Assembly (NCBI GenBank): GCA_964531335.1
Contig: CAZHEV010000003.1
Location: 130,429-194,428 of the forward strand
Source of the DNA: an uncultured bacterium
GTDB taxonomy: Bacteria > Eisenbacteria > RBG-16-71-46 > CAZHEV01
DNA: 64,000 nt
Direction of reading: 5' to 3'
Shown here one piece after another: positions 24,756 through 60,458 of the stretch (positions within the stretch are counted from its first letter, which is position 1; every line of letters starts with the position of its first letter). The notes under the pieces were generated by a model. The model was not told where the DNA came from. It ran no database searches and worked only from the letters and a program-made list of their open reading frames with translations. A program made the translations under genes and the position numbers.

Positions 24756-25086
24756 TCAGGCCGGTGCGGGACGGCGGCCGGGCCGCCTGAGGGCGAAGCC
24801 GCCGGCCCGCGGAAGCCTAACTCGACCGCCTCTTGCGAGCCGCTTCTCGTCCTCGCAAGGTATCAGCCTCCCCGCACTGAAGAGGCCGTACTCGTTCATC
24901 TTCAAGTCCATGCGACGGGCGCGGCCTCTCATCGCCGTATTGTGCTCCGCGCTGCCGGTGAAATGGTGGAACGCGTACGGGTAGTGCATCTCTGTAACGG
25001 CTCTCGCCTTTGAGCTCGAGAAGCACCGCGACCTCGTTCAGGATCGCCGCTATTTCCTTTCTGTCCACCTGTGCGGGTCCTACCAA
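24756..25086 (-). pseudogene. DNA polymerase X (PolX) remnant: N-terminal HhH segment and C-terminal segment in different frames, core deleted
   Basis: One frame gives MVGPAQVDRKEIAAILNEVAVLLELKGE (PolX 8-kDa domain start), then frameshifts. The other frame, 30 codons downstream, gives YAFHHFTGSAEHNTAMRGRARRMDLKMNEYGLF (PolX thumb region). Total span is only about 330 nt. Confidence 0.55.
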
Positions 25087-27968
25087 GGTTGAGAAGTATG
25101 GGTTCCCATGCCGGGACCCAGCACGATCGCGTTCATCAGTAGCCTGCCCGTGCCCAGGTACTGCGCCCTGAAATAGGGATCGTTCAGAAAGAGTATTATT
25201 TGGCCCTCACCCACGCTCTCCCGGGTAAGATATGCGGTCTTCGCCCAGCGTGTCCTGGCCTCGGGCCACAGCAATCCTGAGACCCTCATTTCCGCCTTTT
25301 CCGCCAGCCTGCCGACCGTTTCCACGGGCGGCTTGGACATGAAGGCGCTGCGGCTGAATAGGACTGCCGGCACCTTGTCACCCGATCCTGATGCGAGCCA
25401 GTGCTCCTGGTCGAGGTCGACCCTCAGCATTGCCCCTTGAGGTCTGAACAGGCGAAGCATCTCATCCTCGGCCTTGAGCTCCTGGGACGACTTCTTCGCG
25501 GCCTTCTCGCCCTTCTCTCCGCCCTCGTCGGCTTCCTTCTCCCGTGGGGACCACTCCCAGATCTCCAGGCTGTCTATGGGGGCGGGCTCCACAGGCTCCA
25601 TCTTCAGCGCGTCCTCATATTCGTCGAGCTTATTGATCGCTTGGCGGCGAAGCCTGACCGTGCCGAGCCCAAGGCTGGTATCGGCCAGGGCCGTGGCAGC
25701 CGAGCCCATGGCGATAAGCGTGCCCCCGTCCTCTATCCAACGCTTCAGCTTTCGCACGCCCCCGCGGCCGAGGACCTCTCCGTAAGCTCGCCCCCATGAG
25801 TCGGGCATGATAATCACGTTGTACTTGTCCAGCTCGGCCCGGTGCAGGCGCCCGATGTCCAGCCTAGACGACCTCGTCCCGAGGACATGGTCGAGCATGA
25901 ACCATATGGCGCCGTAGGAGCTCGAAGATATCGGCGATCCACCGAGCAGGCACACCCTGGGCGCCTTGAGGAGCTGGAAACGCCTGGCGCCCAGATCAGG
26001 GCCCTCCTGGCTGAGAGCGCTCGCCGCGCCTATGGCGTCGACGCCGGTTTCCTCGCATACGCGCTCGAGTATGGAATGCAAGTCCTCAGGGTTCTCGACT
26101 CCCCTGAGAAGGAAGCTTCCCCTTACGAAGTCCACTCCGGCCGCGCGGAAGGGCTTCGTCGCGTGGCGGACGCTGCATCCTGCCTCCATCAGGGCGGTCG
26201 CCGCGGAAAGGGCCTTGTCCCTGCGACCGTCGATCAAGTAGCCGTAGGCGCCGTCGCCGCGCACCCTCCCCGGCTTTTGCTCCGGGGCCGTGGCGTGCTC
26301 CAGGTCCCCGCGGACGTCGGAGCTCGACGAATAACACTCGATCCCTGCGGCGATGGGCAGAGACCAGGCGGTCACGTCGTATATCCTGCTTCGCTTGTTC
26401 TTTTCGAGCTCGTATCTCTCCTCCTCCAGAGAGCTGGTGGTCATCCTCGGATCGAACTCCAGCAGGGTCTTGGCCAGAAGCCCCATGGGCTGGGCGAGAG
26501 GCACGACGTAGCTTCCGGGCGCAAGCGTCTTCGAGCCGTAGGATTCGCCCCAGTAATCGGCGAGCCCTCTGGTCTTGACCGCTCCCTGGGCGGTCCTCAC
26601 TTCAATCCCTTGCCGCAGCAGGCTCGCGACGAGCTGGTCCACCCGCCCGGGTTTGTCGCCGGGCACGAGGACGAACGCCTTCTCCTGCGAGCCCAATCGC
26701 CCTTTGCTGGACCTCGACTTCTCCAGGTAGTAGTCCCTCAGCAGCTCGTCCTTGTTCTTGGCCGCCGTTTGGAGGTTCGCCATCGAGCTTATGAATTGAT
26801 GATGCACGGTCTCACCGTAGGTCAGGAAAGACCCGTCGTGGCGCTTGATGAGGGACCCTTCCACTCCGGCCTGCTCGTAGAGTATCCCCAGGGCGCCCAG
26901 ATACAGCGACCATGAGCTGCCGTAGCCGGGGAACCACTCCTCGTTCCACTCCCTGGTGTAGTAGCTCCAGCCGTAGCGGTCGAACGCCCGGGCCTGGTCC
27001 TCCGCGAAGGCCTTCCACCACTTCTTCATCCTGGGAGTCATGTTCGGGTTGAAAGGCTCTCGCGGAGGGGAAAATAGATACGTGTCGAAGGCGCCCATCT
27101 CGTGGGAGTCGACAAAGAGCTGGGGATTCCATTCCACGATGGCCTCCACCTTGCCTTTTGTCTCGGGATGTATCTGGATGTACCAGTCCCTGTTGAGATC
27201 GAAAAGGTAGTGGTTTCCTCTTCCGCCCGACCAGAACCCGGTGTGCTCGAAGCTCTGCGTGTCCCAGTTGGGGCGGACGCCTTCGACCTGCTCCATCATG
27301 GCCAGGAAGCGCTCCCTTCCGTCCGGGTTCTGAAGCGGGTCTATTATCACAACCAGCCGGTGCCGCAACGATTCCGTCAGGCTATCCGTGCCCGCCGCGA
27401 GCTGATAGGCGAGCTGCACGGCGGCGTCCGTGCTGGAGAGCTCGTCGCCGTGGATGCTATAGGCCATCCATGCCACGGCCGGAGTCCTTGCGATCAGGGC
27501 TTCAAGCTCCCTATCGCCTCTTATTTCATTCGTGTGCGCCAGCCGCCTGAGTGAGCCCTTGATCTCGTCCAGGCGCGCCATGTTGTCCCGCGACGACACG
27601 ATCAGGTAATAGAGGGTCCGGCCCTCGTGAGTACGGCCGTACTCGACCATATCGACGAGCGGGCTCGCCCCGGAAAGCTGCTTCAAATAGCCTATTAAGT
27701 CATCGTATCTTACCGGGGAGCGCGCAACCGGCGCGCCCAGGTATTGGGAGGGGGCGGGGACGGCCGGGTCATAGGTGCCGTCCGGGTAGAGGGGCGCGTC
27801 GTACGTAGGCGGCGCTTCGGTTACAGGGCCGACGGCGCCGGATCCCGCGGAAACGTGACCTGGATGAGCCCACAGGGCTGACAGGCACAGGAGCGCCGCG
27901 GCGCACAGAATGTGGCGCCGGCTTGCGGTCGCGCCGCGCCTGTCGGACATCTTCGCAGTCCATCTCAT
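25080..27968 (-). CDS. Secreted M14-family zinc carboxypeptidase, very large multidomain
   Basis: Signal peptide (HILCAAALLCLSALWA), M14 zinc motifs HGDELSS ... HEMG, and a long C-terminal extension. Start set to the internal Met with AAGGAGG RBS (27968) rather than the track's 28325. Confidence 0.7.
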   Translation of the reverse strand: MRWTAKMSDRRGATASRRHILCAAALLCLSALWAHPGHVSAGSGAVGPVTEAPPTYDAPLYPDGTYDPAVPAPSQYLGAPVARSPVRYDDLIGYLKQLSGASPLVDMVEYGRTHEGRTLYYLIVSSRDNMARLDEIKGSLRRLAHTNEIRGDRELEALIARTPAVAWMAYSIHGDELSSTDAAVQLAYQLAAGTDSLTESLRHRLVVIIDPLQNPDGRERFLAMMEQVEGVRPNWDTQSFEHTGFWSGGRGNHYLFDLNRDWYIQIHPETKGKVEAIVEWNPQLFVDSHEMGAFDTYLFSPPREPFNPNMTPRMKKWWKAFAEDQARAFDRYGWSYYTREWNEEWFPGYGSSWSLYLGALGILYEQAGVEGSLIKRHDGSFLTYGETVHHQFISSMANLQTAAKNKDELLRDYYLEKSRSSKGRLGSQEKAFVLVPGDKPGRVDQLVASLLRQGIEVRTAQGAVKTRGLADYWGESYGSKTLAPGSYVVPLAQPMGLLAKTLLEFDPRMTTSSLEEERYELEKNKRSRIYDVTAWSLPIAAGIECYSSSSDVRGDLEHATAPEQKPGRVRGDGAYGYLIDGRRDKALSAATALMEAGCSVRHATKPFRAAGVDFVRGSFLLRGVENPEDLHSILERVCEETGVDAIGAASALSQEGPDLGARRFQLLKAPRVCLLGGSPISSSSYGAIWFMLDHVLGTRSSRLDIGRLHRAELDKYNVIIMPDSWGRAYGEVLGRGGVRKLKRWIEDGGTLIAMGSAATALADTSLGLGTVRLRRQAINKLDEYEDALKMEPVEPAPIDSLEIWEWSPREKEADEGGEKGEKAAKKSSQELKAEDEMLRLFRPQGAMLRVDLDQEHWLASGSGDKVPAVLFSRSAFMSKPPVETVGRLAEKAEMRVSGLLWPEARTRWAKTAYLTRESVGEGQIILFLNDPYFRAQYLGTGRLLMNAIVLGPGMGTHTSQPW

Positions 27969-28391
27969 CGCTTTCCTCCTTGTGATTTTGCGGGTCTTGC
28001 GGGCGCAGCAGCGCCGTATGGATAGCCCCGGGAACACCGTCTGAAGGACGTTTATCAATCCCTCGAGCCCCTGCTCCTCTATGTCCCCCAGGTACCGCGT
28101 GCGCAGCTTCCGCATATGGCCTTCCAGGACCCTCCTGATGGCCCATCTGCCGGCTTCCCTCAGTGAGTCCCGGCCCTGGCCCCGGCAATTCATGCTCTTG
28201 AGGCTGCGGATAGCCTGCCGTACGCTACTTGCGGCTGCAACAACAGCCATCGGGGCGCCTCCTTTCGCTTGACCAGCTTGAAAGTTGACTACTTTGGAGA
28301 TACCCCATTTCCTTGCCTGACACAATCACTTATACATCACCTACTTGCGATAAAGCTTGACTCGAGAAGGCGGCGATGTTAAGATCGCCCC

Positions 28392-28484
28392 CATCGCGGA
28401 GGGATACAATGCTGAGAGCTGGGGCGCTGGTTGTTTCTGCGGGATTCTAAACGAAGTGGCGGACTGCTATGTCCGCCTTTTTTT
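28392..28484 (+). ncRNA. Putative small transcript (sRNA or peptide leader) ending in an intrinsic terminator
   Basis: Candidate promoter TTGACT (28357-28362), 17 nt, TAAGAT (28380-28385). The transcript contains GGAGGG plus a 13-codon ORF (MLRAGALVVSAGF) and ends with hairpin GGCGGAC-tgctat-GTCCGCC followed by TTTTTTT (28458-28484). No flanking plus-strand gene. Confidence 0.35.
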
Positions 28485-28875
28485 GTCCCCTCGAGCCTCT
28501 TCCCCGGCCGGCGGTCGATCCTCCCGAAGTGATAGACTAAACAGTTGTGCGGTTTACTAGGATTTGACCCGGGAGCTACGCCGACGCCGGAGCTATGGCT
28601 CTGGCTCAGCCGTGGTTTTTCGGATGGGGGGCTGGCTGCGAGGACCGGCTCCCCGAAGTCCCATCAGCCCGATGCCGATCGTGCATGGGCGCCCCCATCG
28701 CACAAAGCCGGCCCGGCCAGCCGTCCTGCCGGGCTGGCTTTGAGCAGTTTTGGGGTTCCTTCCTCGCATACTTGACCCGAGTCCACCATGGGATTCCGGG
28801 GGATCTCGGCGCTTCGTGGATTCGCTTGTTCTCTTTGCCGTCGAGACCTCTTCTGAGCCCTCAGGAGAGCGCAGC

Positions 28876-30624
28876 ATGGCGCCTCGCACAGCACCGAAAA
28901 CACACGGGGTCCGCTTTCCACCTGGGTCGCGATTCGTCATCGCCGTGGGCGCAGCCTGTCTGATCGCCGCGGCCCTCCTCTCCGGCTGCCGGGGGAACTC
29001 GCCGGAACGCGGCTGGACTATGCTCGGCTACGGCAGCCGGGGCACCAACTTCTATCCCATAGCCTCCGAAGCGGTCGGGCAGGGGTGGAAGCTCCGGGAG
29101 GACACGGGCCTGTCCGTCGGCCACATCAACTACCCTTCGTTCGAGATAGTTGCCGTGCGCGACGGCGAGGACCGGGCTGTGCCCGTGTCGATACACGGCG
29201 CGGAGTGGTCGGGGTGCGAGATCTGGGTGGGGGACAGGGAGGTCCTCAGCGGTGATGGGCTAACCCTCGTCGGCCAGGTGAACGCCGACGGCGGCCCGCA
29301 GGTGGAGCTCGTTCTGAAAAACACATACCACGAGCTGGTGCGCTCCAGCTCCCCCGATTCCCTGCTGGCCATTCGCAATGTGATCATAGCGGGCTTCACC
29401 GACACCCTTATGGCGATGTGCGGCCCGGGGGACAGCCTCGTGGTCCGAAGCGAGCTGTGCTTCGCGGACCTCGACGGCACCGTGGTGAAGCGTATCCCGT
29501 GCAGGGCGGGTGTGAATCGCATCTGTCAGGTCGGCGGGGGGATCCTTGGAAGGCGGGCGGCACTGGTAACGGACCAGTCGTCCTGGCAGGCATCGGACCT
29601 GCTCTACCAGCGTTACTTCAGGGAGGTCTATTCCGCCGGACACGGCCCGATGTACAGGGCTCTTTCGTACAGCTTCGCCGAAGGGATCGCCACGGAGAGA
29701 GGCGTCGCGGCCATCGACCTCGACTCAGGAGAGGAGCTCTGGTTCTACGCCACGGCGAGCTTCCCGTACATGTACGCCGTGCATGACGTCTGCGGGGACG
29801 AGCAGCCGGAGATCCTGCTTGGCTCTTACAGCCCCCACAACTTGATCAATGCGAGCAACATGACCGATCTCGGACATGCTCATGTGATCCTGCTCGACGC
29901 TTACGGCGCTCCGCTGTGGGTCTACACGCTGCCGGGAATCCACATCGGAGCTAGAACGGGCATAGCCCGGTTGGGGACGGGCGCCGAGTACGGAGTTGTC
30001 GTGGCCGCCGGAAACGCCGCCGCCGAGTGGGGGATGCTGGCCGTGCTCGAGCCTTCCGGCGGCGAGGTCATCGCCTTGACGGTGAGCGAGTTCTCCTACA
30101 CCAGCCTTGTAATCGCGGACCTCGACGGGGACGAAGCGGATGAAATAGTGACCGGCACAACGGACGGCCGGTTTCTGGTCCTCAACGGTGACCTGGATGT
30201 GGTCGCCGAGGCCTCGCCGACACCTCCCGATGAGCTCTTCCGGAGGGTATCGTGCTTCGCGCAATGCGCCAACGACATCGACGGTGATGGATCCATAGAG
30301 CTGGTGGGCGCGTGGGCGAAGCTGCGCTTCGAGGAGCCGACCCGCGAGCGATTGATCGCCGGACCCGCCGATACCGCCTCCCTCTGCGTCGGGGTCTTGT
30401 CGCGGGATCTGGAGCTCTTGGACAGCTTCTGGATCGAACCGGAGCGGGGAGCGCCCGCCTTCGCATGGCATCAGCCTCCCGCCTACTTCGCGCGGGTGTG
30501 CGACGTCGACGGCGACCGGGTAAACGACATAGTGACGAGCTACGGCGGCAGGCTGAGGGTCCTCTCGCCGACCCCTCCGCGTGATATGGCAAAGGCGTCG
30601 GCCGGGGAGGTGAGCGCGGATTGA
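28876..30624 (+). CDS. Lipoprotein with FG-GAP/VCBS-like beta-propeller repeats
   Basis: Signal peptide plus lipobox (AVGAACLIAAALLSGC), and repeated DLDGDEADEIV / DIDGDGSIELVG / DVDGDRVNDIV calcium-binding-like motifs. AGGAGAG RBS; TGA overlaps the TTG start of the next gene. Confidence 0.6.
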   Translation: MAPRTAPKTHGVRFPPGSRFVIAVGAACLIAAALLSGCRGNSPERGWTMLGYGSRGTNFYPIASEAVGQGWKLREDTGLSVGHINYPSFEIVAVRDGEDRAVPVSIHGAEWSGCEIWVGDREVLSGDGLTLVGQVNADGGPQVELVLKNTYHELVRSSSPDSLLAIRNVIIAGFTDTLMAMCGPGDSLVVRSELCFADLDGTVVKRIPCRAGVNRICQVGGGILGRRAALVTDQSSWQASDLLYQRYFREVYSAGHGPMYRALSYSFAEGIATERGVAAIDLDSGEELWFYATASFPYMYAVHDVCGDEQPEILLGSYSPHNLINASNMTDLGHAHVILLDAYGAPLWVYTLPGIHIGARTGIARLGTGAEYGVVVAAGNAAAEWGMLAVLEPSGGEVIALTVSEFSYTSLVIADLDGDEADEIVTGTTDGRFLVLNGDLDVVAEASPTPPDELFRRVSCFAQCANDIDGDGSIELVGAWAKLRFEEPTRERLIAGPADTASLCVGVLSRDLELLDSFWIEPERGAPAFAWHQPPAYFARVCDVDGDRVNDIVTSYGGRLRVLSPTPPRDMAKASAGEVSAD

Positions 30625-33233
30625 GACGCCGACTGAGATCTCTCGTCACGCTTTCCCCATATGCTCTCCTGCTCCTTCCCGCGTGCCTTTGTTGCATCTG
30701 CCTTGCCCTGCCGGCCCAGGCCGCTGAAACGCCGGGTCTTTTCTACCGCCGGCTCCCGCCCTTTATCCCCGAGGGCATATCTTCCGCGTGCCTGGTCTCT
30801 TACGGGACGGACCGGCACGCCGTGGTCTGCGCTCTGCGCGACGGATCGCTCCTGGGTATGATCTATCTCTCAAGTGACGACAACTTTCTAATAAACACTT
30901 TTCATGAATGCGACGATCCTGTTCTCGATCTCACCGTATTCGACATGCAGGTTCGAGGAAAGGCGACGAAATGCTTCGCCGGAATAGGAGCCAGGACACT
31001 GCATCTTTTCTCGGGCGATTTCGCCCTTTTGCTCGAAAAGGAGTTCGAGGGCGCCGAAGCGCCGGCTTTCTTCCTACAGGGAGACGCAGGCGGGCGCGGG
31101 CCTGAAAGCCGCTTGTATTTCTGTAGGGGAAGTGCGGTCTATTCGCTCGCGCTGCCGGGACTGAAGGAGGAGCGGATAGCTACGCTGCCGGCGCCCGCCT
31201 GCGCGGCGCGACTGTGCGTGACGGCGGACGGAGAGAGGCTGGCGGTGGGAGTCACGGAGGGAGGAGACCTGTGGACGGTGGACGTCGAACGAGGATCCGC
31301 GCATGTGGAGCCGAGCGGCCTGCGACCTGTTACCGGGTTGGACCGGAGCGATCTGAACGGAGAACGCGAGGGCTTTCCGGTCTGCGTTTTTCGTGACGGC
31401 CACGGCGGGGCCCGCCTGGCCGTCGCTCATCTAGGCGACGCCGGCGGATCGGCGGCGGCGGCCGTGACATGCTTCGCAATATCGCGCGACGGTATGGAGG
31501 AGCTCTGGACGGTGGACTTCCCGGAGGGTCCATGTATCTCCCTAGCCGCAGGGGATTCGGCCCTGTACGCGGGCGGCGGCACCATCTGGAGGGGCGAGGG
31601 CACGGGAGGATGGATACGAAGGTACGGCCTCGATGGAGAAATGGAGCGCGAGCTGCGGGTGCCGTGCCCGGTGGGATATATCCGGCGCGTGGGAGAGACG
31701 ATCTGCGCCCTGGACCGCATCTCCGACGGCGGGCGACACGATAGCTGGTGTCTCACCGTGGCCTCCCCATCGCTCCGGCGCCTCTGGATGGAAAGCTGCG
31801 TTTTGAACCCAAAGGGGATACTCGCGGGGGACATAGGCGGCGACTCGCGGAAGGACATCGTGGTGGTGGGAGACGTGCTGCGCTTCGTCGGGGAGAGGGG
31901 GGTCCAAGGCGAGCGCGGAGAGGTCGACTGCTATATAAACCGGATGGGCGTGCTCGAGAGGATGGCGCAGACCCACGAGGAAAGCGCCGACGACTTATCG
32001 GCGGAGGGCCAAATCCGCGAGGCCGAAGATGCCCTTTCGCTTGCCCGTTCGATCAGATGGTCCCTCGCAGACGAGGACGCCGCGGGGAGGATTGGAGACA
32101 AGCTGGAAGAAATGAGACTTGCCGAGGCCAGGATGGAGCGGCTCGAGACGGTCACCCTCGTAGTCCTGGCGGTCTTTCTCGTGCCGGTCGTATGGAAGCG
32201 CAAGACCATATCCGCGTTGGCGGAGCGGATCGCCGCCGGCCTGTTCCCGGGCTCACGCAAAGAGAAAGCGCTGAGGGAGCCGCCTTCGGTAAGCCTCGTC
32301 CAGTCCGTTCTGGAGTTCCAGCACAGCGGATCCATCAGCAAGGCGCTCACACGCCTCGGCTTCAACCTCGCCAACACGAATCCACGTACCGAACGAGGTC
32401 GCGAGGCCGCCGCGACGGCCGCCGGGCTGGCGCAGAGCTTCGAAGCCAATTTCAGACGCCAGATCGAAGATATAGCTTCGATCATCAACGAGGTCACCAG
32501 GGACGCACCCGGCCATGGAGAGTCGCTGCAACGCTCGCTCGAGGACCGGTTCTCCGATCTGAAGGAAGAGATACCCGTCTTCGTGGATGCCGTGAGCGCG
32601 GGAGAGGGGCTCACGGAGGCGGCATCGCGTCTGGACAACGCCTGTGAGCGTCTCAAGTCCGCGGTCCTGGATGTGGCCAGGGCGGTCAATCGATCGTTCT
32701 TCTGCTCTGTTGGTGACGCCCTGTCCATGGTGCTCGCGAACGAGGAGAGATCGCTGGCCGAAGCCGGGGTGATCGCGAGGGTGCACGATACGAGATCCAG
32801 GGAGCTCGGCGTTGTGATACGTCCCCATCACCTGATATTCGTGCTTCAGAACCTGGTGGAGAACGCCATAAGGGCGATGTCGCAAAGCGAGGAGAAGGTG
32901 TTGTCCGTCACCGTAAGGGTCGAGGGCGTGGACACGGTGGTCGAGGTGAGCGACACCGGAGCGGGAGTGCCGCAGGCGCTGCGCGGGGTGATCTTCGACG
33001 CGGGCGGTTCCCGGGCTCCAAGCGCGGACTCGCGGGGGAAAGGCGGATTCGGTCTGAATCACTCCAGAAAGCTGCTCCAGGAGTACGGAGGATCCGTTCG
33101 TCTCCTGGGCACCTCCTCGTCAAAGGGATCCACCTTCGCCGTCGGGCTAAGGACATGGCCCCGTGGGGCGCCGATCCCCCGGGATGAGGAAAGAAGCTCC
33201 GGTGAAGGGCCGGCGCGCGGGAGGCCGATGTAG
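30621..33233 (+). CDS. Sensor kinase-like protein: large periplasmic beta-propeller-like domain, 1 TM, C-terminal HATPase_c, no recognisable H-box
   Basis: Signal peptide, about 480-aa periplasmic domain, TM helix (LVVLAVFLVPVVW), N-box LQNLVENAIRAM, G1 DTGAGVP, G2 GGFGLNHSR. No HExxTPL-type phospho-His motif seen in the 250-aa linker. Confidence 0.6.
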   Translation: MRRRLRSLVTLSPYALLLLPACLCCICLALPAQAAETPGLFYRRLPPFIPEGISSACLVSYGTDRHAVVCALRDGSLLGMIYLSSDDNFLINTFHECDDPVLDLTVFDMQVRGKATKCFAGIGARTLHLFSGDFALLLEKEFEGAEAPAFFLQGDAGGRGPESRLYFCRGSAVYSLALPGLKEERIATLPAPACAARLCVTADGERLAVGVTEGGDLWTVDVERGSAHVEPSGLRPVTGLDRSDLNGEREGFPVCVFRDGHGGARLAVAHLGDAGGSAAAAVTCFAISRDGMEELWTVDFPEGPCISLAAGDSALYAGGGTIWRGEGTGGWIRRYGLDGEMERELRVPCPVGYIRRVGETICALDRISDGGRHDSWCLTVASPSLRRLWMESCVLNPKGILAGDIGGDSRKDIVVVGDVLRFVGERGVQGERGEVDCYINRMGVLERMAQTHEESADDLSAEGQIREAEDALSLARSIRWSLADEDAAGRIGDKLEEMRLAEARMERLETVTLVVLAVFLVPVVWKRKTISALAERIAAGLFPGSRKEKALREPPSVSLVQSVLEFQHSGSISKALTRLGFNLANTNPRTERGREAAATAAGLAQSFEANFRRQIEDIASIINEVTRDAPGHGESLQRSLEDRFSDLKEEIPVFVDAVSAGEGLTEAASRLDNACERLKSAVLDVARAVNRSFFCSVGDALSMVLANEERSLAEAGVIARVHDTRSRELGVVIRPHHLIFVLQNLVENAIRAMSQSEEKVLSVTVRVEGVDTVVEVSDTGAGVPQALRGVIFDAGGSRAPSADSRGKGGFGLNHSRKLLQEYGGSVRLLGTSSSKGSTFAVGLRTWPRGAPIPRDEERSSGEGPARGRPM

Positions 33234-33267
33234 GGCGAGGACGCCGATGGAAAGAGGGAAACACCTT

Positions 33268-34668
33268 ATGTCCACGCGATTGCTCATCGTCGACGATGAC
33301 CAGGGTTATTTGAACGACCTCATATCGCAGCTCGAGTCCAGGTACGAGTGCCTGGGAGCGAGCAGCCGCGAGCGGGCCTTGGACCTCATGGAGTCTCATG
33401 CCCCGGACGTGGTCGTGACCGACGTCTTTCTCGAGGGCGAGCGTCCGACCGGGTTCGATTTGCTCGTGGAGTTGAAGAAAAGGGATGAGACTCTACCGGT
33501 CGTCCTGATCAGCGAGCGCCATGATCTTTCATTGGTCCTCGAGCTGGCCGTTCAGGGCGGAGGAGTGGAAGGAGACGGATATCTCGGTAAGCCGTTCTCG
33601 GTGGAGGAGCTCGAAGACAGGATCGAATCCGCCTTGCGCATGAGGAGGGCCGCCGAGGCCTTGGCCCGTCAGAGCGCAGGCCCCGCGGACACGGAGATAG
33701 TGGCCGCCGGCGCGTCCATGCAAAGGGCGATGAGAATGCTGGAAACGTACGCCCCCACCGATGCGACGGTGCTCCTGTTGGGAGAGACGGGCACGGGAAA
33801 GACGCTGTTGGCCAGGGAGCTGCACAGGCGCAGCAGAAGGGCAAGGAAGGCGTTCATAGAGGTGCAGTGCCCCAACCTGCAGCGAGAGCTCGTAAGGAGC
33901 GAGCTCTTCGGGCACGAGAAAGGCTCCTTCACCGGAGCCGGGGAGAGAAGCAAGGGGCGCTGCGAGATCGCGGACGGGGGCACTCTGTGCCTGGAGGAGA
34001 TCGGCGACCTCGAACCGGGCGTACAGGGGTGCCTGCTTAGGCTCCTGGAGGAAGGGGCCTTCGAGCGCGTCGGGGGCGGCGCGACGATCAACGTCGATGT
34101 CAGAGTGATAGCGGTGACCAACGTCGACCTGGAGGAACAAGTGAGGCGGGGCGCTTTCCGCAAAGACCTCTACTACAGATTGAGCCAGTGCCCAATAACG
34201 ATCGACCCGCTGCGAGAGAGAAAGGAGGACATCGAGCCCCTTGCCCGTCGCTTCCTGGACATGTACTGCAGGAAATACTCCGTCATGGTCGAAGGCATAA
34301 GCGCAGATGCCATGGACATGATGCGCGCCTACGAATGGCAGGGCAACGTCCGCGAGCTCGATCACATAATGATGCTCTCCGTCATGAACAGAAAGGCGTC
34401 GGGGAGCACGGGAGAGCTGCGTCCCGAGGAGCTCAGAATAGGTGAGTCGAGCCTCGAGGGCCGGTCATCCCGAATGACATATGATGATCTCAAAGAACAT
34501 CAGCTCCAGGAGTCGAGGAGATACTTCTCTGGGGTTCTCGCCCAAGCCGGCGGCGACGCCGCGAAGGCCTCGAGGATCGCGGGGATACCGCGAGGGAGCC
34601 TTTACCGCAAGTTGAAAAGTCTCGGGATCAGTCCCGGCAAAGGCGGCGGCAAAAGCGTGACGGATTAA
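33268..34668 (+). CDS. Sigma-54-dependent response regulator (NtrC family: REC-AAA+-HTH)
   Basis: REC (LLIVDDDQ...VVVTDVFL), Walker A GETGTGKT, GAFTGA-like GSFTGA, ESELFGHEKGSFTGA, and a C-terminal Fis-type HTH. AGAGGGAA RBS before ATG 33268. Confidence 0.85.
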   Translation: MSTRLLIVDDDQGYLNDLISQLESRYECLGASSRERALDLMESHAPDVVVTDVFLEGERPTGFDLLVELKKRDETLPVVLISERHDLSLVLELAVQGGGVEGDGYLGKPFSVEELEDRIESALRMRRAAEALARQSAGPADTEIVAAGASMQRAMRMLETYAPTDATVLLLGETGTGKTLLARELHRRSRRARKAFIEVQCPNLQRELVRSELFGHEKGSFTGAGERSKGRCEIADGGTLCLEEIGDLEPGVQGCLLRLLEEGAFERVGGGATINVDVRVIAVTNVDLEEQVRRGAFRKDLYYRLSQCPITIDPLRERKEDIEPLARRFLDMYCRKYSVMVEGISADAMDMMRAYEWQGNVRELDHIMMLSVMNRKASGSTGELRPEELRIGESSLEGRSSRMTYDDLKEHQLQESRRYFSGVLAQAGGDAAKASRIAGIPRGSLYRKLKSLGISPGKGGGKSVTD

Positions 34669-34930
34669 CCCGCTCCGCGCCCGGCCGTCGCCCCGAGCCG
34701 CGCTTCCTGTCACATTTCCGCGATTTGATTCTCGCCATCGTGAATCCCGTAACCTTTAGACCCCCATGTAAATAGAGAATTCGCTTTCCCGCGCCGTCAC
34801 CGAGTTGAGAATCCCGGCCGGCGCGGGGCATGGCGGCAGCGACGACCGCGCGCCGGCTTCACCTCCACATCTTCATGTAGCACAGGCAGTAGCGTCGATG
34901 CACGCCTTTGCGCCCGCGGCGAAGGTCCGG

Positions 34931-34946
34931 TGGCACGGCTGGTGCA
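34931..34946 (+). promoter_or_regulatory. Sigma-54 (-24/-12) promoter upstream of the stand-alone receiver gene
   Basis: TGGCACG-gctg-GTGCA versus consensus TGGCACG-N4-TTGCA (one mismatch). About 70 nt upstream of the REC ORF and about 260 nt downstream of the NtrC-family activator gene. Confidence 0.55.
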
Positions 34947-35015
34947 AAGGATGGGGTCGGTTGTGGCTGCATGGGCTGCGTGTGCTTCGTAATGTCCTCC
35001 GACTAGCGGGAGGTT

Positions 35016-35417
35016 ATGGGGTTGTACGGTTCAGGAGATCAGAAGCTCATTCTGCTGGTGGACGACGACAGCGGGTTCCACAGGGACTTCGCTGCCATGC
35101 TCTCACCCAAATACCGCCTCCTGAGCGCGTACAACCCCTCGGAGGCCCTGCGGCTCGCCAAGATCGAAACGCCGTACGTGGCCCTCATGGACTTGCACCT
35201 GCCGCTGACGACCGCCGGATACGAGTACTCCGCGGGGCTCGAGCTGCTCGAGGAGATGCACAAGGTCACCTACGGCGAGCTTCCCATCATAATGCTGATC
35301 GACTGCGATATAGAGCATGGACTGTGCGAGCACATTCTGACCAGAGCCAGGGGCATCATCAAGAAGCCGAGGGAGATGAAGGCCCTGCTGGACGAGATGG
35401 AACGGTGCCTGGGGTAG
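35016..35417 (+). CDS. Single-domain response-regulator receiver (CheY-like) protein
   Basis: LILLVDDDSGF...VALMDLHLP...IIMLID. 133 aa with no output domain. Confidence 0.65.
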   Translation: MGLYGSGDQKLILLVDDDSGFHRDFAAMLSPKYRLLSAYNPSEALRLAKIETPYVALMDLHLPLTTAGYEYSAGLELLEEMHKVTYGELPIIMLIDCDIEHGLCEHILTRARGIIKKPREMKALLDEMERCLG

Positions 35418-35440
35418 TTGGGTAGACTGGATAGGCCGCG

Positions 35441-35487
35441 CCCCGCCGGGTGCGCTTTCGGCGAATTCCGGCGGGGTTGTTTTTTTC
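35441..35487 (+). terminator. Candidate intrinsic terminator after the REC gene
   Basis: CCCGCCGG ... CCGGCGGG inverted repeat followed by GTTGTTTTTTT. The loop is long (about 18 nt). Confidence 0.4.
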
Positions 35488-35489
35488 TC

Positions 35490-35518
35490 TTGACGGGCGA
35501 ACATATGTTCGGTATCAT
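35490..35518 (+). promoter_or_regulatory. lexA promoter with embedded Cheo-type LexA box
   Basis: -35 TTGACG (35490-35495), 17-nt spacer, -10 TATCAT (35513-35518). The perfect palindrome CGAACATATGTTCG (35498-35511) matches CGAACRNRYGTTCG, lies in the spacer and overlaps the -10. Confidence 0.7.
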
Positions 35519-35556
35519 ATGTATAGTCTGAATCGTGAAGGAAAGAAGGGCTTGCA

Positions 35557-36174
35557 ATGAAAGAGCTTACAGATCGGCAGAGGGACGTTCTCGATGTGAT
35601 TCTCTCCTCGGTGGGGGAGACCGGGCGCTTTCCCTCCTACAGGGAGATAGGCCGGGAGCTGGGCATGAGCTCCGTGGCCACGGTCGGCCAGCACATGGAG
35701 GCCCTCGTGGCCAAGGGAGCCCTCAGAAGGGACGGCGACCTCCTTGCGGTGAATCCTGCCCTGAGGGGCGACAAGGGGATCCCCATAGTGGGCCGGATCG
35801 CGGCCGGCGCCCCCATAACGGCCATCGAGCACCTGGAGGGGACATTGGACCTGGCGGGAATCGTAGGCCGCGGGGGGACACACTACGCCGTGAGAGTAAA
35901 GGGCGACAGCATGGTCGAGGCGGGTATCCACGGGGGAGATCTGGTCGTGGTGCGCCTTCAGTCGACCGCCGAGAGCGGCGACACGGTTGTCGCGTACCTC
36001 GGCGAGGAGCAGGAGGCGACGGTCAAGGTTCTCTACAAGCGCAGATGGGGTTACGAGCTTCAGCCCCGGAACGCGGATTACGAGATCATAAAGATAAGGA
36101 GAGACGATCCTCACTTCCGCCTGGGCGGGAAAGTGGTGGCCGTGGTGAGGAAGCTGTCGGGCAAGAAGGTATAA
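35557..36174 (+). CDS. lexA: LexA repressor (SOS regulator, S24 peptidase)
   Basis: N-terminal wHTH (LTDRQRDVLDVI...YREIGRELGMSS), AG cleavage site (IAAGAP), catalytic Ser (KGDSM) and Lys (VKVLYKR). Confidence 0.9.
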   Translation: MKELTDRQRDVLDVILSSVGETGRFPSYREIGRELGMSSVATVGQHMEALVAKGALRRDGDLLAVNPALRGDKGIPIVGRIAAGAPITAIEHLEGTLDLAGIVGRGGTHYAVRVKGDSMVEAGIHGGDLVVVRLQSTAESGDTVVAYLGEEQEATVKVLYKRRWGYELQPRNADYEIIKIRRDDPHFRLGGKVVAVVRKLSGKKV

Positions 36175-36180
36175 CGGGAA

Positions 36181-36435
36181 ATGCAGGTAGAGCACTTGAA
36201 CGAAGCGATCAAGGTAAGGGCGGATTTTCAAGGCGGCAGGATCGTACCGCTCGTCTTCAAGCGGAAGGACAAGAACTACAGGGTGACGCAGGTCAACGCC
36301 GCCTGGGAGGACAGGGAGGGTACGCAAAAGCTCTACTTCTTCTCCGTGACCGCCGACAGCGGAGACGTCTATCAACTGCGATTGAGCGGCAAGGACATGA
36401 CCTGGTATGTCGACCTGGTGATGATGGAGGGGTAG
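36181..36435 (+). CDS. Hypothetical 84-aa protein inside the lexA-polIV-dnaE2 cassette
   Basis: ORF begins 7 nt after the lexA stop on the same strand (MQVEHLNEAIKVRADFQGGRIVPLVFKRKDKNYRVTQVN...). No family recognised. Confidence 0.45.
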   Translation: MQVEHLNEAIKVRADFQGGRIVPLVFKRKDKNYRVTQVNAAWEDREGTQKLYFFSVTADSGDVYQLRLSGKDMTWYVDLVMMEG

Positions 36436-36662
36436 CGGGAGCGGACGGGAGCCACCCACCGTGACTGATTGATTCCGTTCCTGGCTTCTGTCCCACCGGC
36501 CCCCCATCGTCGCCGGGCGCACGGAGCGACCGCGGATCCGAGCGCGTCGCCGAGGATCTCTCCCGCCTTGTGCCGGGCCGGAAAGCCTGGTCATGGCCTC
36601 CGGCGAGATCCGGCTTCGTTCTGAAGTCATAAGCTATCTCTTCCTCCATAAGGGCCCCCTGA

Positions 36663-37865
36663 ATGAGCTCGTCGATAATGCACGTGGACATAGACGCCTT
36701 CTTCGCGTCCGTAGAGCAGCTGCGCAATCCGTCCCTTCGCGGCCGGCCCGTCATCGTGGGGGCCGGCGTGATAGCGAGCTGCTCCTACGAGGCGAGGCGT
36801 TACGGCCTCAAGGCCGGGATGCCGTTGCGCGAGGCGATGCGGCTGTGCCCGGGCGCGGTGATCCTGGACGGCCACGCGCAGGTCTATCGCTGCTTCGCCG
36901 AGCGGGTGTTCGACGTGTGCCGGGAGATCGCGCCGGGCGTTGAGACGCACCTGGACGAGGCCTACTGCGACCTCGGGGGGACCGCGGCTCTCTATGGTGA
37001 CGCGGTCCGCGCCGGCGAGAGGCTGCGCCGGGAGGTCGAGCTGCGGGTGGGCCTTTCGGTGACCGTGGGGCTCGGCGGCAACCGCATGATCGCGAAGCTG
37101 GCCGGGACGACGGTGAAGCCGGGCGGGGTGAGGGTCATAGAGGACGGGCGGGAGCGCGAGTTCGTGGAGGGGATTCCCGTGCGGGATATCCCCGGCGTGG
37201 GCCGCGCGAGGGCGGAGGTGCTTCGAAAGCTCAACGTTCGGACCGCCGGCGACCTGGCGGCCTTTCCGCTTCCGCACCTTCGCATGCTCTTCGGCCGAAA
37301 CGGCGAGGTGCTCTACAGGCGGTGCAGGGGATCGGACGGCGGCCTGCTCGACAACGAGATCCCCAAGTCCATTTCCAGGGAGACCAGCTTCCAGCACGAG
37401 ACGGGGGACCGGGGCGAGATAGAGGGAACGTTGCGATATCTCGTAGGGCGCGCGGCCAGGACGCTGCGTGGGCTGGCGCTCTCGGCGCGAACCGTCTCCG
37501 TCAGGGTGCGGTACGCGGACGGCGAGGGCCGGGAGAGGGCGCGCACGATGCCCCGACCGGCGCGTCTCGACACGGAGCTGTTCGAGCTGTGCCTCTCCTT
37601 GGTCGGGCCGATGCTGGAGCGCCGGTGCGGGCTGCGCCTGGCCGGCGTGTCGCTGTCCTGTCTCTGCCGGGGGTCGGCTCCGCAGGGGGATCTGTACGAA
37701 GAGAGCAGGTCGTTCCGGGAGGCTGAGCTGTGCGGCGGCCTGGACAGGGTGCGCGATCGTTTCGGACACGGCGCCGTCGTGTCGGGGCGTGCTTTATATC
37801 TTATGGGCAAGGTAAAGAGGGACAGATATGGATATATCCTACGCACCCCTTCGCTTACGAAGTAA
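36663..37865 (+). CDS. dinB: Y-family DNA polymerase (Pol IV/DinB-like, catalytic residues intact)
   Basis: HVDIDAFFASVE (catalytic Asp pair) and HLDEAYCDL (Asp-Glu) conserved as in E. coli DinB D8/D103/E104. 3' end overlaps dnaE2 by 38 nt. Confidence 0.75.
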   Translation: MSSSIMHVDIDAFFASVEQLRNPSLRGRPVIVGAGVIASCSYEARRYGLKAGMPLREAMRLCPGAVILDGHAQVYRCFAERVFDVCREIAPGVETHLDEAYCDLGGTAALYGDAVRAGERLRREVELRVGLSVTVGLGGNRMIAKLAGTTVKPGGVRVIEDGREREFVEGIPVRDIPGVGRARAEVLRKLNVRTAGDLAAFPLPHLRMLFGRNGEVLYRRCRGSDGGLLDNEIPKSISRETSFQHETGDRGEIEGTLRYLVGRAARTLRGLALSARTVSVRVRYADGEGRERARTMPRPARLDTELFELCLSLVGPMLERRCGLRLAGVSLSCLCRGSAPQGDLYEESRSFREAELCGGLDRVRDRFGHGAVVSGRALYLMGKVKRDRYGYILRTPSLTK

Positions 37866-40800: not shown

Positions 40801-41091
40801 ATCGTGGGCGTGGTGTCGGCCCGCAGGCGCATTCGGACCGAGGGCGGGGAGGCTATGCTATTTCTCACAATAGAGGACGCGACCGGGCTCGTGGAGGTGG
40901 TGGTGTTCCCCCACGCGTACAGGCGGGTGCGGGTCGATCTCGACGGCAGGGGGCCTCTGTGTGTGACCGGAAAGGTGGAGGACCACTACGGGGCGCTGAC
41001 ACTGGTGGCGGACGCTGTCGTAGCGGCGGGCCGGATGGAGGACCGCGACTCGGCTACGCGCGGATCCTGTGCGCCGTGGGGAGGAGGCTGA
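37828..41091 (+). CDS. dnaE2: Error-prone DNA polymerase III alpha-family (DnaE2 / ImuC)
   Basis: 1087 aa with a PHP domain N-terminus (MDISYAPLRLRSNYSLLAGTMTLEEIVERA), LVKMDLLGNRGLT and GDTLGCFQIES polymerase motifs. Size and SOS context are typical of DnaE2 rather than replicative DnaE. Confidence 0.75.
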   Translation: MDISYAPLRLRSNYSLLAGTMTLEEIVERACRMGLGAVALTDINNLYGAVRFQELARARGLKAIVGAELRAKSEAATLLARDGEGYANLCRALTRLHLGRDAAAEADAAGEEAPLEGLLEGGAGGLYCMVEEPALAERLLGLFPRERLWLELAGPGRASRVWERNVRAARSMGVGVVATGEAWFGAAEDWALHRALRAVAGRTLVQRAGAVEGVAHPNAYMATPAQMTRRLGRLSWALEESARIAQDCDVTLESGGRVFPACALEPGETARSRLTRMCREGLRTRYGPSPGHRVRRRLEREIEVIDNLGFCSYFIVVGEIVAWARGRGIAVLGRGSGASSLVAYLLGITGVDPLRYGLVFERFMNSRRPDYPDLDVDLCWRRRDEVIDHVYEKYGNDRVAMISTHVTFQKRSAVREMAKVWGLAPDDLLKTLREWERMRERGHGAALEGRGGPLSREPLRTALAMARRVQGFPRHIGIHCGGLVIAPGPLAEMAPLERAPKGVVVTQYEMDAVERVGLVKMDLLGNRGLTMAQECIELAASREGRAEGDGAPGDARAWQGAGRAGGDRSRGDGSAPDGGSGRAAAGAGVRGVPASMEDIPDGDAKAAELLRAGDTLGCFQIESPAMRRLLSMIEPEGSDEVIAAVALVRPGPSGSGMKDVFIRRKRGLDRTRFTHPCLAPVLKDTYGVMLYEEDVLKVAAVAAGLPLEDGDDLRRAMVEAGRGRELSEVRRGFLERAARRGVDAKASRALWEDLSRFSSYAFCKAHAAGYGLLAYRTAYLKAHYPAEYASAVLNNHAGMYPTRVHLEDARRRGIGIIGPCVNSSGAGFTVEGGAIRVGLNRIRGLRAAAVDDIITARKEGGAFRSFSDLLARAALSSPEAEALALAGALDFTGAARPALLLEALAWSKGRGGRHAAGRPLLPDLGLTAPVPGMREFDPGLRAEMEARQLGLTPSRHPVEDRPAPAGSGARGAGQRLTTCAGLKARVGRRAAIVGVVSARRRIRTEGGEAMLFLTIEDATGLVEVVVFPHAYRRVRVDLDGRGPLCVTGKVEDHYGALTLVADAVVAAGRMEDRDSATRGSCAPWGGG

Positions 41092-59349: not shown

Positions 59350-59355
59350 AGTGAT

Positions 59356-60414: not shown

Positions 60415-60442
60415 CTTGATGATTCCCCCTGATCTCACAACT

Positions 60443-60458
60443 GGCAATGGTCGTGCCT
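60443..60458 (-). promoter_or_regulatory. Sigma-54 (-24/-12) promoter for the HK-RR operon
   Basis: Minus-strand aGGCACG-acca-TTGCc versus consensus TGGCACG-N4-TTGCA. Lies about 20 nt upstream of the SD/GTG of the kinase gene. Confidence 0.5.

What the first reader, a model, noticed from the sequence alone, without database searches (positions are those of the whole stretch)
28876..35417. Lipoprotein / atypical sensor kinase / sigma-54 activator module feeding a sigma-54 promoter that drives a lone receiver protein
A beta-propeller-repeat lipoprotein gene (28876..30624) is translationally coupled (TTGA overlap) to an 870-aa membrane protein. That protein has a signal peptide, an about 480-aa periplasmic domain with similar repeat character, one TM helix and a bona fide HATPase_c (N, G1, G2 boxes), but no recognisable HisKA/H-box in its 250-aa linker; the only nearby His are EFQHSGS and RPHH. 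It is followed 35 nt later by an NtrC-family activator gene. About 260 nt downstream of that gene sits a near-consensus sigma-54 promoter (TGGCACGgctgGTGCA, 34931-34946) in front of a single-domain CheY-like gene (35016..35417). This is an unusual wiring: periplasmic sensor complex, then a kinase-like ATPase without a canonical phospho-His, then an enhancer-binding protein, then sigma-54-dependent expression of a stand-alone receiver.
Basis: partly seen in the sequence, partly recalled or inferred. Interest (0 to 1): 0.55.

Follow-up and report, generated by a model that had tools for sequence, protein, structure and literature searches.

The report
Rare sensor module with odd kinase
A four-gene envelope-sensing regulatory module, known from only two or three uncultured bacterial lineages, is built like an ordinary two-component system. 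Its membrane kinase has no recognisable phospho-histidine domain, and its only predicted target is a small, partly degenerate receiver protein.

Summary
The only relative found (47/38/54/43% identity) keeps the same order: lipoprotein, HATPase_c sensor, NtrC-type activator, lone receiver. It also carries a TGGCACG-N4-TTGTA motif upstream of its receiver gene.

The 870-aa sensor has an intact ATP-binding domain. No HisKA, Hpt or related family was detected by Pfam, NCBIfam, profile-profile comparison, or an exhaustive HMMER search of 1.84 billion proteins. Its predicted cytoplasmic fold nevertheless matches the DHp+CA core of histidine kinases. The best-conserved linker block, VLEFQHSGSI..L.RL.FNLAN, holds the only conserved non-CA histidine, H568, 180-181 aa before the N-box in both orthologues.

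I read it as a very divergent but probably functional kinase for the adjacent activator, whose receiver active site is intact. A pseudokinase is not excluded.

The lone receiver is atypical. The conserved Thr/Ser is missing in both lineages, and the phospho-Asp is Ser in the relative. It is more likely a phosphorylation-independent feedback or adaptor protein than a CheY-like phospho-acceptor.

This is a lineage-restricted variant of a known kind, of modest interest.

The parts
28876..30624 (+). Lipoprotein gene (582 aa). It has a lipobox LLSG|C and four conserved D-x-x-G-D-x3-(D/E)-(I/L) loops of FG-GAP type. It is a probable beta-propeller-like periplasmic co-sensor.
   Evidence: Searches give the ORF, Shine-Dalgarno site and lipobox. 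One search gives sub-threshold hits to Beta-prop_CGLA (E=1.7e-4), FG-GAP_3 and BBS2_Mid. Searches show one homologue, P0004, at 47% identity with the loops conserved.
30621..33233 (+). Membrane sensor gene (870 aa). It encodes a signal-peptide-like N-terminus, a beta-rich periplasmic domain of about 470 aa, one TM helix, a helical cytoplasmic stalk and a GHKL (HATPase_c) domain.
   Evidence: Based. By exhaustive HMMER, residues 1-730 match only itself, one orthologue (P0005) and one fragment (P0006) among 1.84e9 representatives.
32142..32201 (+). Transmembrane helix, residues 508-527.
   Evidence: Hydropathy scan.
32280..32402 (+). The most conserved linker block (residues 554-594): PP.V.LV..VLEFQHSGSI.K.L.RL.FNLAN...RT..GR. 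It contains H568, the candidate phospho-acceptor.
   Evidence: See the alignment. Of 28 identical residues, 13 use different synonymous codons. H568 lies 180 or 181 aa before the N-box in the two orthologues.
32391..32696 (+). Three long predicted helices (residues 591-625, 632-660, 664-692) that form the DHp-like stalk before the catalytic domain. There is no conserved His in them.
   Evidence: The AF2 model has pLDDT of about 80-95 in this region. Foldseek aligns 220-240 columns to the DHp+CA of WalK, HK853, ZraS and DivL at E of about 1e-9.
32826..33149 (+). HATPase_c catalytic domain (residues 736-843). The N-box (NLVENAIRAM), G1 (DTGAG) and G2 (GGFGL) boxes are conserved in both orthologues.
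   Evidence: hhalign probability 99.5% to canonical CA domains.
33268..34668 (+). NtrC-family enhancer-binding protein. Its REC has D9-D11, D53, S82 and K108. Its AAA+ domain has a GSFTGA loop. It ends in an HTH.
   Evidence: One search gives Sigma54_activat at E=4e-60. One search shows it is below every equivalog cutoff. Searches show 54% identity to the orthologue.
34931..34946 (+). Sigma-54-type -24/-12 promoter motif, TGGCACG-GCTG-GTGCA.
   Evidence: The orthologous locus has TGGCACG-CCGC-TTGTA 98 nt before its receiver gene. No sigma-70-like site was found in either spacer.
35016..35417 (+). Single-domain atypical receiver (133 aa, or 131 aa from the TTG at 35022). The DDD motif, D59 and K are present. 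The Thr/Ser position is Ile. There is a 5-residue insert after beta3.
   Evidence: One search gives Response_reg at 35.8 bits. In one search the orthologue has Ser at the phospho-Asp position and Ala at the Thr/Ser position. One search shows the same Ser codon in three assemblies.
35440..35490 (+). Intrinsic-terminator-like hairpin (11-bp G+C-rich stem) followed by a U-run. It closes the receiver transcription unit.
   Evidence: MFE -29.3 kcal/mol, but z = -1.7 only. It is not present in the relative.

Best explanation
This is a lineage-restricted, two-component-type envelope-sensing module. A periplasmic lipoprotein with FG-GAP-like loops and the large beta-rich periplasmic domain of the membrane sensor are inferred to detect an unknown envelope or extracellular cue together. 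This rests only on conserved adjacency.

The sensor's cytoplasmic part is a helical DHp-like stalk plus an intact ATP-binding GHKL domain. I propose that it is a highly divergent but functional histidine kinase. It would autophosphorylate on H568 in the conserved VLEFQHSGSI motif. An extra helical hairpin of about 63 aa would lie between that helix and the catalytic domain. The phosphoryl group would pass to D53 of the adjacent NtrC-type activator. All of this is inferred.

The phosphorylated activator would then drive the sigma-54 promoter 260 nt downstream of its own gene. The motif is shown, and it is conserved in the relative. Its function is inferred.

The only conserved product of that promoter is a small receiver-fold protein. 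It has lost the Thr/Ser switch residue in both lineages and the phospho-Asp in the relative. I therefore infer that it acts without phosphorylation, most likely as a feedback regulator or adaptor that binds the sensor or the activator. The signal and the final physiological output are unknown.
For: Module conservation:
- The gene order is conserved in the only relative, together with upstream synteny (hemerythrin, Fe-ADH, M14 peptidase), while the downstream genes differ.

Sensor:
- The CA domain has N, G1 and G2 boxes conserved in both orthologues.
- In the AF2 model the helices have pLDDT of about 90. Foldseek top hits are all DHp+CA kinase cores at E of about 1e-9 over 220-240 columns.
- H568 is the only conserved His outside the CA domain. 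It lies in the best-conserved linker block, which is kept at the protein level despite 13 synonymous changes.
- The H568-to-N-box distance is 180/181 aa in both orthologues. Two kinases with canonical HEINxP boxes have 134 and 205 aa.

Activator:
- Its REC keeps DD, D, S and K, and its AAA+ domain keeps the GAFTGA-type loop.

Promoter and target:
- A one-mismatch sigma-54 motif lies upstream of the receiver gene in both loci, whose spacers otherwise cannot be aligned.
- No sigma-70-like site was found there.
- A terminator-like hairpin follows the receiver gene in the window.
- The receiver active-site changes are shown.
Against: - No sequence method detects a DHp, H-box or Hpt.
- The residue after H568 is Ser, not the usual acidic residue.
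- H568 sits at the end of a short, only moderately confident helix (pLDDT about 62-67). A Pro-rich, low-confidence segment precedes it, rather than a continuous signalling helix.
- The two helices that Foldseek and phmmer equate with the DHp (632-692) carry no conserved His.
- A very weak HMM match (4.5 bits) aligns the H568 block with the end of DHp helix 2 rather than the H-box.
- The model rests on a two-sequence alignment, and I could not inspect its coordinates.
- Only two full orthologues exist, so 'conserved' means conserved across one comparison.
- The -12 element of the relative's motif reads GT, not GC.
- No shared upstream activator site was found.
Confidence: 0.5

Rival explanations
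1. The sensor is a pseudo-histidine kinase. It binds ATP or ADP and keeps a DHp-like dimerisation hairpin, but it has no phospho-acceptor. It would control the activator or the lone receiver through protein-protein contact, in the manner of DivL-DivK or NifL-NifA. The activator's REC would be phosphorylated by another kinase or by small-molecule donors.
For: - No H-box, HisKA or Hpt was found by any sequence method.
- The structurally DHp-equivalent helices lack a conserved His, and helix 1 there is poorly conserved.
- The segment between the membrane and the conserved motif is Pro-rich and flexible.
- The co-conserved receiver is itself degenerate, as expected for a binding partner rather than a phospho-acceptor.
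- DivL is among the Foldseek hits.
- Pseudo-kinases are an established class (PMC4211667; PMC12632262 section 6).
Against: - The activator REC keeps every phosphorylation residue in both lineages, and no other kinase gene lies in the module.
- H568 sits in the most strongly conserved cytoplasmic block.
- All ATP-binding boxes are kept.
- DivL and similar pseudo-kinases keep a recognisable HisKA domain with the His replaced, which is not the case here.
Confidence: 0.27
2. The phospho-acceptor follows CheA-like logic. H568 lies on a short tethered helical element that acts as a substrate domain. The downstream hairpin without a His serves only for dimerisation, as the P3 domain does in CheA. This would be a new phospho-acceptor arrangement for a membrane sensor kinase.
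For: - The conserved His block is set off by a flexible Pro-rich linker on its N-terminal side.
- A His-less hairpin directly precedes the CA domain and aligns structurally with DHp.
Against: - There is no Hpt or H-kinase_dim signal.
- The block is only about 30 residues (two short helices), not a four-helix Hpt bundle.
- The motif HSGSISK does not fit H-x-x-K-G.
- The arrangement of the helices could not be inspected, and it rests on a two-sequence AF2 model.
Confidence: 0.12
3. The sigma-54 motif is a chance match. The receiver gene would be transcribed from an unrecognised promoter or by read-through from the activator gene, so the 'activator drives receiver' wiring would not be real.
For: - 1.23 sites with at most one mismatch are expected per 64 kb, and 72% of shuffles have at least one.
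- The relative's site has GT instead of the GC doublet at -12.
- No conserved upstream activator sequence was found.
- No terminator was seen between the activator and receiver genes.
Against: - In each locus it is the only site with at most one mismatch.
- In both loci it is on the coding strand, 69-98 nt before the receiver start, in spacers that otherwise do not align. The joint chance for those two spacers is roughly 1e-5 by my estimate from the shuffle rates.
- It lies immediately downstream of an enhancer-binding-protein gene.
- No sigma-70-like site was found in either spacer.
Confidence: 0.12

Closest known systems
NtrB/NtrC-type two-component systems with sigma-54 output (for example ZraS/ZraR, AtoS/AtoC)
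   Same: The gene order is sensor kinase then REC-AAA+-HTH activator. The activator has an intact receiver and a GAFTGA-type loop. A -24/-12 promoter lies next to the activator gene. The CA domain is closest to this group and the DcuS group in NCBIfam and PDB searches.
   Different: The sensor has no detectable HisKA or H-box. There are 180 aa between the candidate His and the N-box, against 112-119 in typical kinases. The activator scores below every NCBIfam equivalog cutoff. The only conserved target is a degenerate receiver rather than a metabolic or stress operon.
Sensor kinases with an accessory lipoprotein (MtrB-LpqB, CpxA-NlpE, RcsF with the Rcs system); compared from my own knowledge
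   Same: A lipoprotein gene is genetically linked to a membrane sensor kinase, which suggests joint sensing in the envelope.
   Different: There is no sequence relationship to LpqB, NlpE or RcsF, and no Pfam or NCBIfam hit to them. Here the lipoprotein gene precedes the kinase gene, and no physical interaction was tested.
Pseudo-histidine kinases such as DivL (PMC4211667), and NifL
   Same: These are HK-fold proteins that keep the CA domain but not a canonical phospho-His. They partner with a single-domain receiver (DivK) or a sigma-54 activator (NifA). DivL is among the fold matches.
   Different: DivL keeps a recognisable HisKA domain with Tyr at the His position, whereas here no H-box is recognisable at all. 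NifL has PAS domains and its partner NifA lacks a receiver, whereas here the activator has a complete receiver.
Pseudo-receivers and aspartate-less receivers (PMC12632262, PMC4395418)
   Same: The protein has a receiver fold with missing active-site residues: the Thr/Ser in both lineages and the Asp in the relative. Such domains make up about 6% of bacterial receivers.
   Different: The window's copy still has the Asp and the acidic pair, so it sits on the border between atypical receiver and pseudo-receiver. Its expression from a sigma-54 promoter inside its own signalling module is not a described feature of that class, as far as I know.
Periplasmic beta-propeller sensor kinases of Bacteroidota (Reg_prop/Y_Y_Y hybrid kinases, for example hit P0013)
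   Same: Both have a large beta-rich periplasmic sensor domain in front of a kinase core that carries a long insertion between the H-box and the N-box (205 aa in P0013).
   Different: There is no Reg_prop or Y_Y_Y signal. P0013 has a canonical AHEINTPL H-box. Similarity is confined to the CA domain.

Membership tests
Histidine kinase (HisKA-type two-component sensor) | GHKL catalytic (CA) domain with N, G1 and G2 boxes | tested here: met
   HATPase_c scores E=3.2e-16. hhalign to 8 canonical kinase cores gives 99.5% probability over residues 736-843. The boxes are conserved in the orthologue.
Histidine kinase (HisKA-type two-component sensor) | DHp / HisKA-family domain with an H-box recognisable by sequence | tested here: not met
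   There is no HisKA, HisKA_2, HisKA_3, HWE_HK, His_kinase, SPOB_a, H-kinase_dim or Hpt hit at E<=10, on the whole protein or on the linker of either orthologue. NCBIfam hits cover only the CA domain. hhalign aligns only the CA domain. phmmer of residues 1-730 against 1.84e9 proteins finds no kinase.
Histidine kinase (HisKA-type two-component sensor) | DHp-like helical hairpin preceding the CA domain in three dimensions | tested here: inconclusive
Histidine kinase (HisKA-type two-component sensor) | Conserved phospho-accepting histidine | tested here: inconclusive
   H568 is conserved in the single orthologue, inside the best-conserved linker block. It is not in the helices equated with the DHp. 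H632, H736 and H737 are not conserved. Phosphorylation itself cannot be tested here.
NtrC-family enhancer-binding response regulator | Receiver with DD/D/S-T/K, AAA+ sigma-54 interaction domain with GAFTGA loop, and C-terminal HTH | tested here: met
   Response_reg scores E=4e-15 and Sigma54_activat E=4e-60. HTH_8 scores only 18.7 bits, below its cutoff of 22. D9-11, D53, S82, K108 and GSFTGA are seen in the alignments. No NCBIfam equivalog cutoff is reached.
Sigma-54 promoter | TGGCAC-N5-TTGCW with GG and GC 10 bp apart, upstream of a gene and near an activator | tested here: met
   There is one mismatch (the T before the GC is a G) at 34931-34946. The orthologous locus has one mismatch (GC to GT) at the equivalent place. 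Function was not tested.
CheY-like phospho-accepting receiver | Five active-site residues: acidic pair, phospho-Asp, Thr/Ser and Lys | tested here: not met
   The window protein has DDD, D59 and K, but Ile at the Thr/Ser position. The orthologue has Ser at the Asp position and Ala at the Thr/Ser position. The Ser codon is confirmed in three assemblies.
FG-GAP / beta-propeller lipoprotein | Lipobox plus FG-GAP-type repeats detected above family thresholds | tested here: inconclusive
   The lipobox LLSGC is present. All propeller-family hits are below their cutoffs, the best being Beta-prop_CGLA at 21.6 against 26.8 bits. Four D-x-x-G-D loops are conserved. PDB profile hits to YesW/YesX have E of about 1. 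No structure was predicted for the lipoprotein.
CheA-type kinase | Hpt (P1) domain, H-kinase_dim (P3) and CheW-like (P5) domains | tested here: not met
   None of these families was hit at E<=10.

The most novel reading that the evidence does not exclude
The sensor would represent a new phospho-acceptor architecture. It would be a membrane kinase whose phosphorylatable His (H568, motif EFQHSGS) sits on a short tethered helical element outside a His-less dimerisation hairpin. A partner lipoprotein would work with it. A sigma-54-induced receiver that has lost its phosphorylation chemistry would bind the kinase or the activator as a feedback element.
Probability: 0.13. Interest if true: 0.6.

Novelty: new variant of a known kind. 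Interest (0 to 1): 0.3.

Why it matters
If H568 is a genuine phospho-acceptor, the EFQHSGS block would define a previously unmodelled H-box or DHp type. Annotation pipelines currently miss it. It would also give a natural example of a kinase core with an extra helical hairpin.

If the sensor is a pseudokinase, the module would be a compact case of an HK-fold protein and a degenerate receiver co-evolving with a fully competent sigma-54 activator.

In either case the family is known from only two or three uncultured lineages among about 15 billion proteins. Its general impact is therefore limited, and the signal and output remain unknown.

Tried and rejected
- Word-index homologue searches with the sensor, alone and as a two-sequence profile, returned only itself plus generic kinases matching the CA domain.
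- A scan of 185,579 species genomes with the lipoprotein profile found nothing. The metagenome scan found only the JGI contig already known.
- SdhA from the window was used to place the organism. The best matches are only 65-69% identical and spread over Acidobacteriota, KSB1, Gemmatimonadota and Chloroflexota. The lineage stays unassigned.
- AF2 of the periplasmic sensor domain failed (mean pLDDT 41.9; mostly beta strands plus three C-terminal helices). It was not used for fold search.
- Forced global hhalign and a home-made DHp HMM gave no meaningful H-box alignment.
- A PDB profile search of the linker hit only a designed coiled-coil bundle.
- No upstream activator site is shared between the two spacers. 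Shared 8-9-mers are at chance level, and the palindromes differ between loci.
- No Rfam family was found in 28200-35100.
- The idea that the S8 peptidase next to the module in the relative is the orthologue of the window's S8 peptidase was rejected. Only the repeated Ig-like domains match.
- Two long minus-strand ORFs beside the second kinase/activator pair look like spurious antisense ORFs.
- Cluster look-up gave no names or accessions.
Full report
**1. What is there**

- A 582-aa protein is encoded at 28876-30624. Its ATG follows an AGGAG site, and it begins with a lipoprotein signal (LLSG|C).
- Its TGA overlaps the TTG start (30621) of an 870-aa protein. That protein has a signal-peptide-like N-terminus and a periplasmic region of about 470 aa. 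It has one further hydrophobic helix (residues 508-527), a 208-aa cytoplasmic linker, and a HATPase_c domain at 736-843 (E=3.2e-16).
- Thirty-four nucleotides later an NtrC-type activator starts (33268-34668). It has REC, Sigma54_activat (E=4e-60), an AAA lid, and a weak HTH_8.
- TGGCACGGCTGGTGCA lies at 34931-34946. The receiver gene (35016-35417) scores 35.8 bits on Response_reg, against a cutoff of 30.2.
- After its stop comes a G+C-rich hairpin and U-run (35440-35490). Then lexA follows with its own promoter. In this genome the receiver gene therefore looks like a monocistronic unit.

**2. Is it more than chance?**

The sigma-54 motif is the only site with at most one mismatch in 64 kb. 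However, 1.23 such sites are expected per window, so it proves nothing alone. The comparison with a relative settles it.

- The lipoprotein has exactly one homologue in the 5.8-billion-protein index: P0004, at 47% identity.
- Its contigs come from JGI, ENA and Logan assemblies. They carry the same four genes in the same order, and the same upstream neighbours (hemerythrin, Fe-ADH, M14 peptidase). The downstream genes differ.
- The spacers between activator and receiver cannot be aligned. Yet the relative has TGGCACGCCGCTTGTA 98 nt before its receiver gene. This is the only site with at most one mismatch in that 21.6-kb locus.
- Neither spacer has a sigma-70-like site.

From the shuffle rates I estimate the joint chance of such sites in those two spacers, on the right strand, at about 1e-5. 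The -12 doublet of the relative reads GT rather than GC, which is a weakness.

**3. How rare is it?**

An exhaustive HMMER search with residues 1-730 of the sensor against 1.84 billion cluster representatives found three proteins:

- the sensor itself;
- the relative's 919-aa orthologue (P0005);
- a 173-aa fragment on a 641-bp contig (P0006).

Scans of GTDB species genomes and JGI metagenomes with the lipoprotein profile added nothing. SdhA from the window is at most 69% identical to any GTDB species, across several phyla. The host is therefore an unsampled deep lineage.

**4. The kinase question**

*Sequence evidence against a canonical DHp is consistent.*

- No phospho-acceptor family appears in Pfam or NCBIfam, even at E<=10 on the isolated linkers of both orthologues.
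- Profile-profile comparison with eight canonical kinase cores aligns only the CA domain.
- A PDB profile search of the linker hits only a designed coiled coil.

*Three observations argue that this is still a kinase core.*

- The CA domain keeps the N, G1 and G2 boxes in both orthologues.
- An AF2 model of residues 528-870 predicts two short helices (555-568, 573-584) and three long ones (591-625, 632-660, 664-692; pLDDT about 80-95). The CA domain follows them. Foldseek's top 50 PDB hits are all DHp+CA cores or proteins containing them: WalK/YycG, HK853, ZraS, DivL, KinB, CpxA and CusS. They score E of about 1e-9 over 220-240 aligned columns.
- The best-conserved part of the whole linker is residues 554-594, PP.V.LV..VLEFQHSGSI.K.L.RL.FNLAN...RT..GR. 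Twenty-eight residues are identical, and 13 of them use different codons.

H568 in that block is the only conserved histidine outside the CA domain. H632, H736 and H737 are not conserved, and H722 lies on a CA-domain strand.

H568 is 180 or 181 residues from the N-box Asn in the two orthologues. Seven typical kinases have 112-119. Two kinases with canonical HEINxP boxes have 134 and 205. One extra helical hairpin of about 63 aa would account for the difference.

*Points against H568.*

- The next residue is Ser, not acidic.
- H568 ends a short, moderately confident helix that follows a Pro-rich flexible segment.
- The helices that phmmer and Foldseek equate with the DHp (632-692) lack a conserved His.
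- A 4.5-bit HMM match pairs the block with the end of DHp helix 2 rather than with the H-box.

I could not inspect the model's coordinates. The alignment behind it has only two sequences. My estimates are: divergent functional kinase about 0.5, pseudokinase about 0.27, and a CheA-like tethered-His arrangement about 0.12. These overlap partly with the main model.

**5. The activator**

It is ordinary. D9-D11, D53, S82 and K108 are present. The GSFTGA loop (GAFTGA in the relative), the Walker motifs and a C-terminal HTH are conserved at 54% identity. It reaches no NCBIfam equivalog cutoff. A fully competent receiver in both lineages is the best indirect argument that a cognate kinase exists. The adjacent sensor is the only candidate in the module.

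The same window also holds a fully canonical kinase/activator pair: DUF4118+HisKA+HATPase_c at 59356-60447 and an activator at 57994-59349, both on the minus strand. This organism therefore also uses standard HisKA kinases.

**6. The lone receiver is not CheY-like in chemistry**

In an alignment with four other receivers:

- The window protein keeps the acidic cluster, D59 and the Lys, but has Ile at the Thr/Ser position.
- The relative has Ser (AGT, identical in three assemblies) at the phospho-Asp position and Ala at the Thr/Ser position.
- Both share a 5-residue insert after beta3.

By the criteria reviewed in PMC12632262, the relative's protein is a pseudo-receiver and the window's is borderline. 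A function common to both lineages is therefore unlikely to need Asp phosphorylation. The simplest idea is a binding protein that feeds back on the sensor or the activator, but nothing here tests that.

**7. The sensory side**

- The lipoprotein gives only sub-threshold FG-GAP or propeller hits at residues 386-477.
- It has four D-x-x-G-D-x3-(D/E)-(I/L) loops conserved in the homologue.
- It gives E of about 1 to the YesW/YesX propellers.
- The sensor's periplasmic domain has one such loop (GDIGGD..D.VV).
- The two proteins are not detectably homologous (BLASTP E=0.19).
- The AF2 model of the sensor domain was unusable (pLDDT 41.9).
- Translational coupling is not conserved. The relative has about 360 nt between the two genes.

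Joint sensing by the two proteins is an inference from conserved adjacency only.

**8. Comparison with known systems, and verdict**

The module works like an NtrB/NtrC-type two-component system with an accessory lipoprotein. The activator is a member of its family. The promoter fits its class.

I cannot file the sensor as a HisKA-type kinase, because the defining sequence feature was tested and not met. The fold-level test is suggestive but inconclusive. The receiver fails the five-residue test for phospho-accepting receivers.

Two refinements apply:

- 'No phospho-His' is unproven, and there is a specific candidate, H568.
- The output protein is a degenerate receiver.

This is a new, very narrowly distributed variant of a known kind of system. 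Interest is modest (0.3) unless biochemistry shows a new phospho-acceptor arrangement.

Noticed in passing
window 35490-41091: This looks like an SOS mutagenesis cassette. lexA (35557-36174) has a sigma-70-like promoter (TTGACG-17-TATCAT) overlapping a perfect GAACATATGTTC palindrome at 35500-35511, which I recall as a Cheo-type LexA box. It is followed by a DUF6504 protein (36181-36435), a Y-family polymerase (36663-37865) and a DnaE2-like polymerase (37828-41091).
   Followed up: partly
window 28357-28487: The divergent spacer upstream of the lipoprotein gene holds a sigma-70-like promoter (TTGACT-17-TAAGAT with TG). It also holds a 13-codon ORF, MLRAGALVVSAGF (28410-28451), behind GGAGGG, and a clean intrinsic terminator (28458-28487). 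This could be a small peptide gene, a leader or a small RNA. No Rfam family matches.
   Followed up: partly
window 57994-60447 (minus strand): A second, fully canonical kinase/activator pair is present. It consists of a DUF4118+HisKA+HATPase_c kinase (59356-60447) and an NtrC-type activator (57994-59349). The long minus-strand ORFs beside it (60508-62607, 62607-63773) look like spurious antisense ORFs.
   Followed up: partly
window 35018-35028 and L002 16603-16613: The 11-mer GGGGTTGTACG is shared at the translation-start region of the receiver gene in both loci, although the spacers otherwise do not align. In the relative it is out of frame with the receiver ORF, so it is not conserved as coding sequence. 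It could be a 5'-UTR or RBS element, or chance (about 0.07 expected).
   Followed up: no
L086 (641-bp contig, ENA ERZ28655138): A 173-aa fragment (P0006) matches the N-terminal periplasmic part of the sensor, at 30% identity to the window protein. From the printed sequences it looks closer to the relative's protein. This points to a third lineage carrying the family. The contig is too short to show neighbouring genes.
   Followed up: partly
window 25080-28325 (minus) and L002 4701-7592 (minus): A large M14 carboxypeptidase gene diverges from the module in both genomes. In the relative an S8 peptidase of 1324 aa follows the receiver gene without an obvious terminator. The window's own S8 peptidase (52816-56655) is not its orthologue, since only the Ig-like repeats match. 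A link between the module and secreted proteases is possible but untested.
   Followed up: partly
window 46492-47529 (minus strand): This is a response regulator with an HD_5/HD output domain. From my own knowledge that would make it an RpfG-like HD-GYP type. It is another signalling gene in the window.
   Followed up: no
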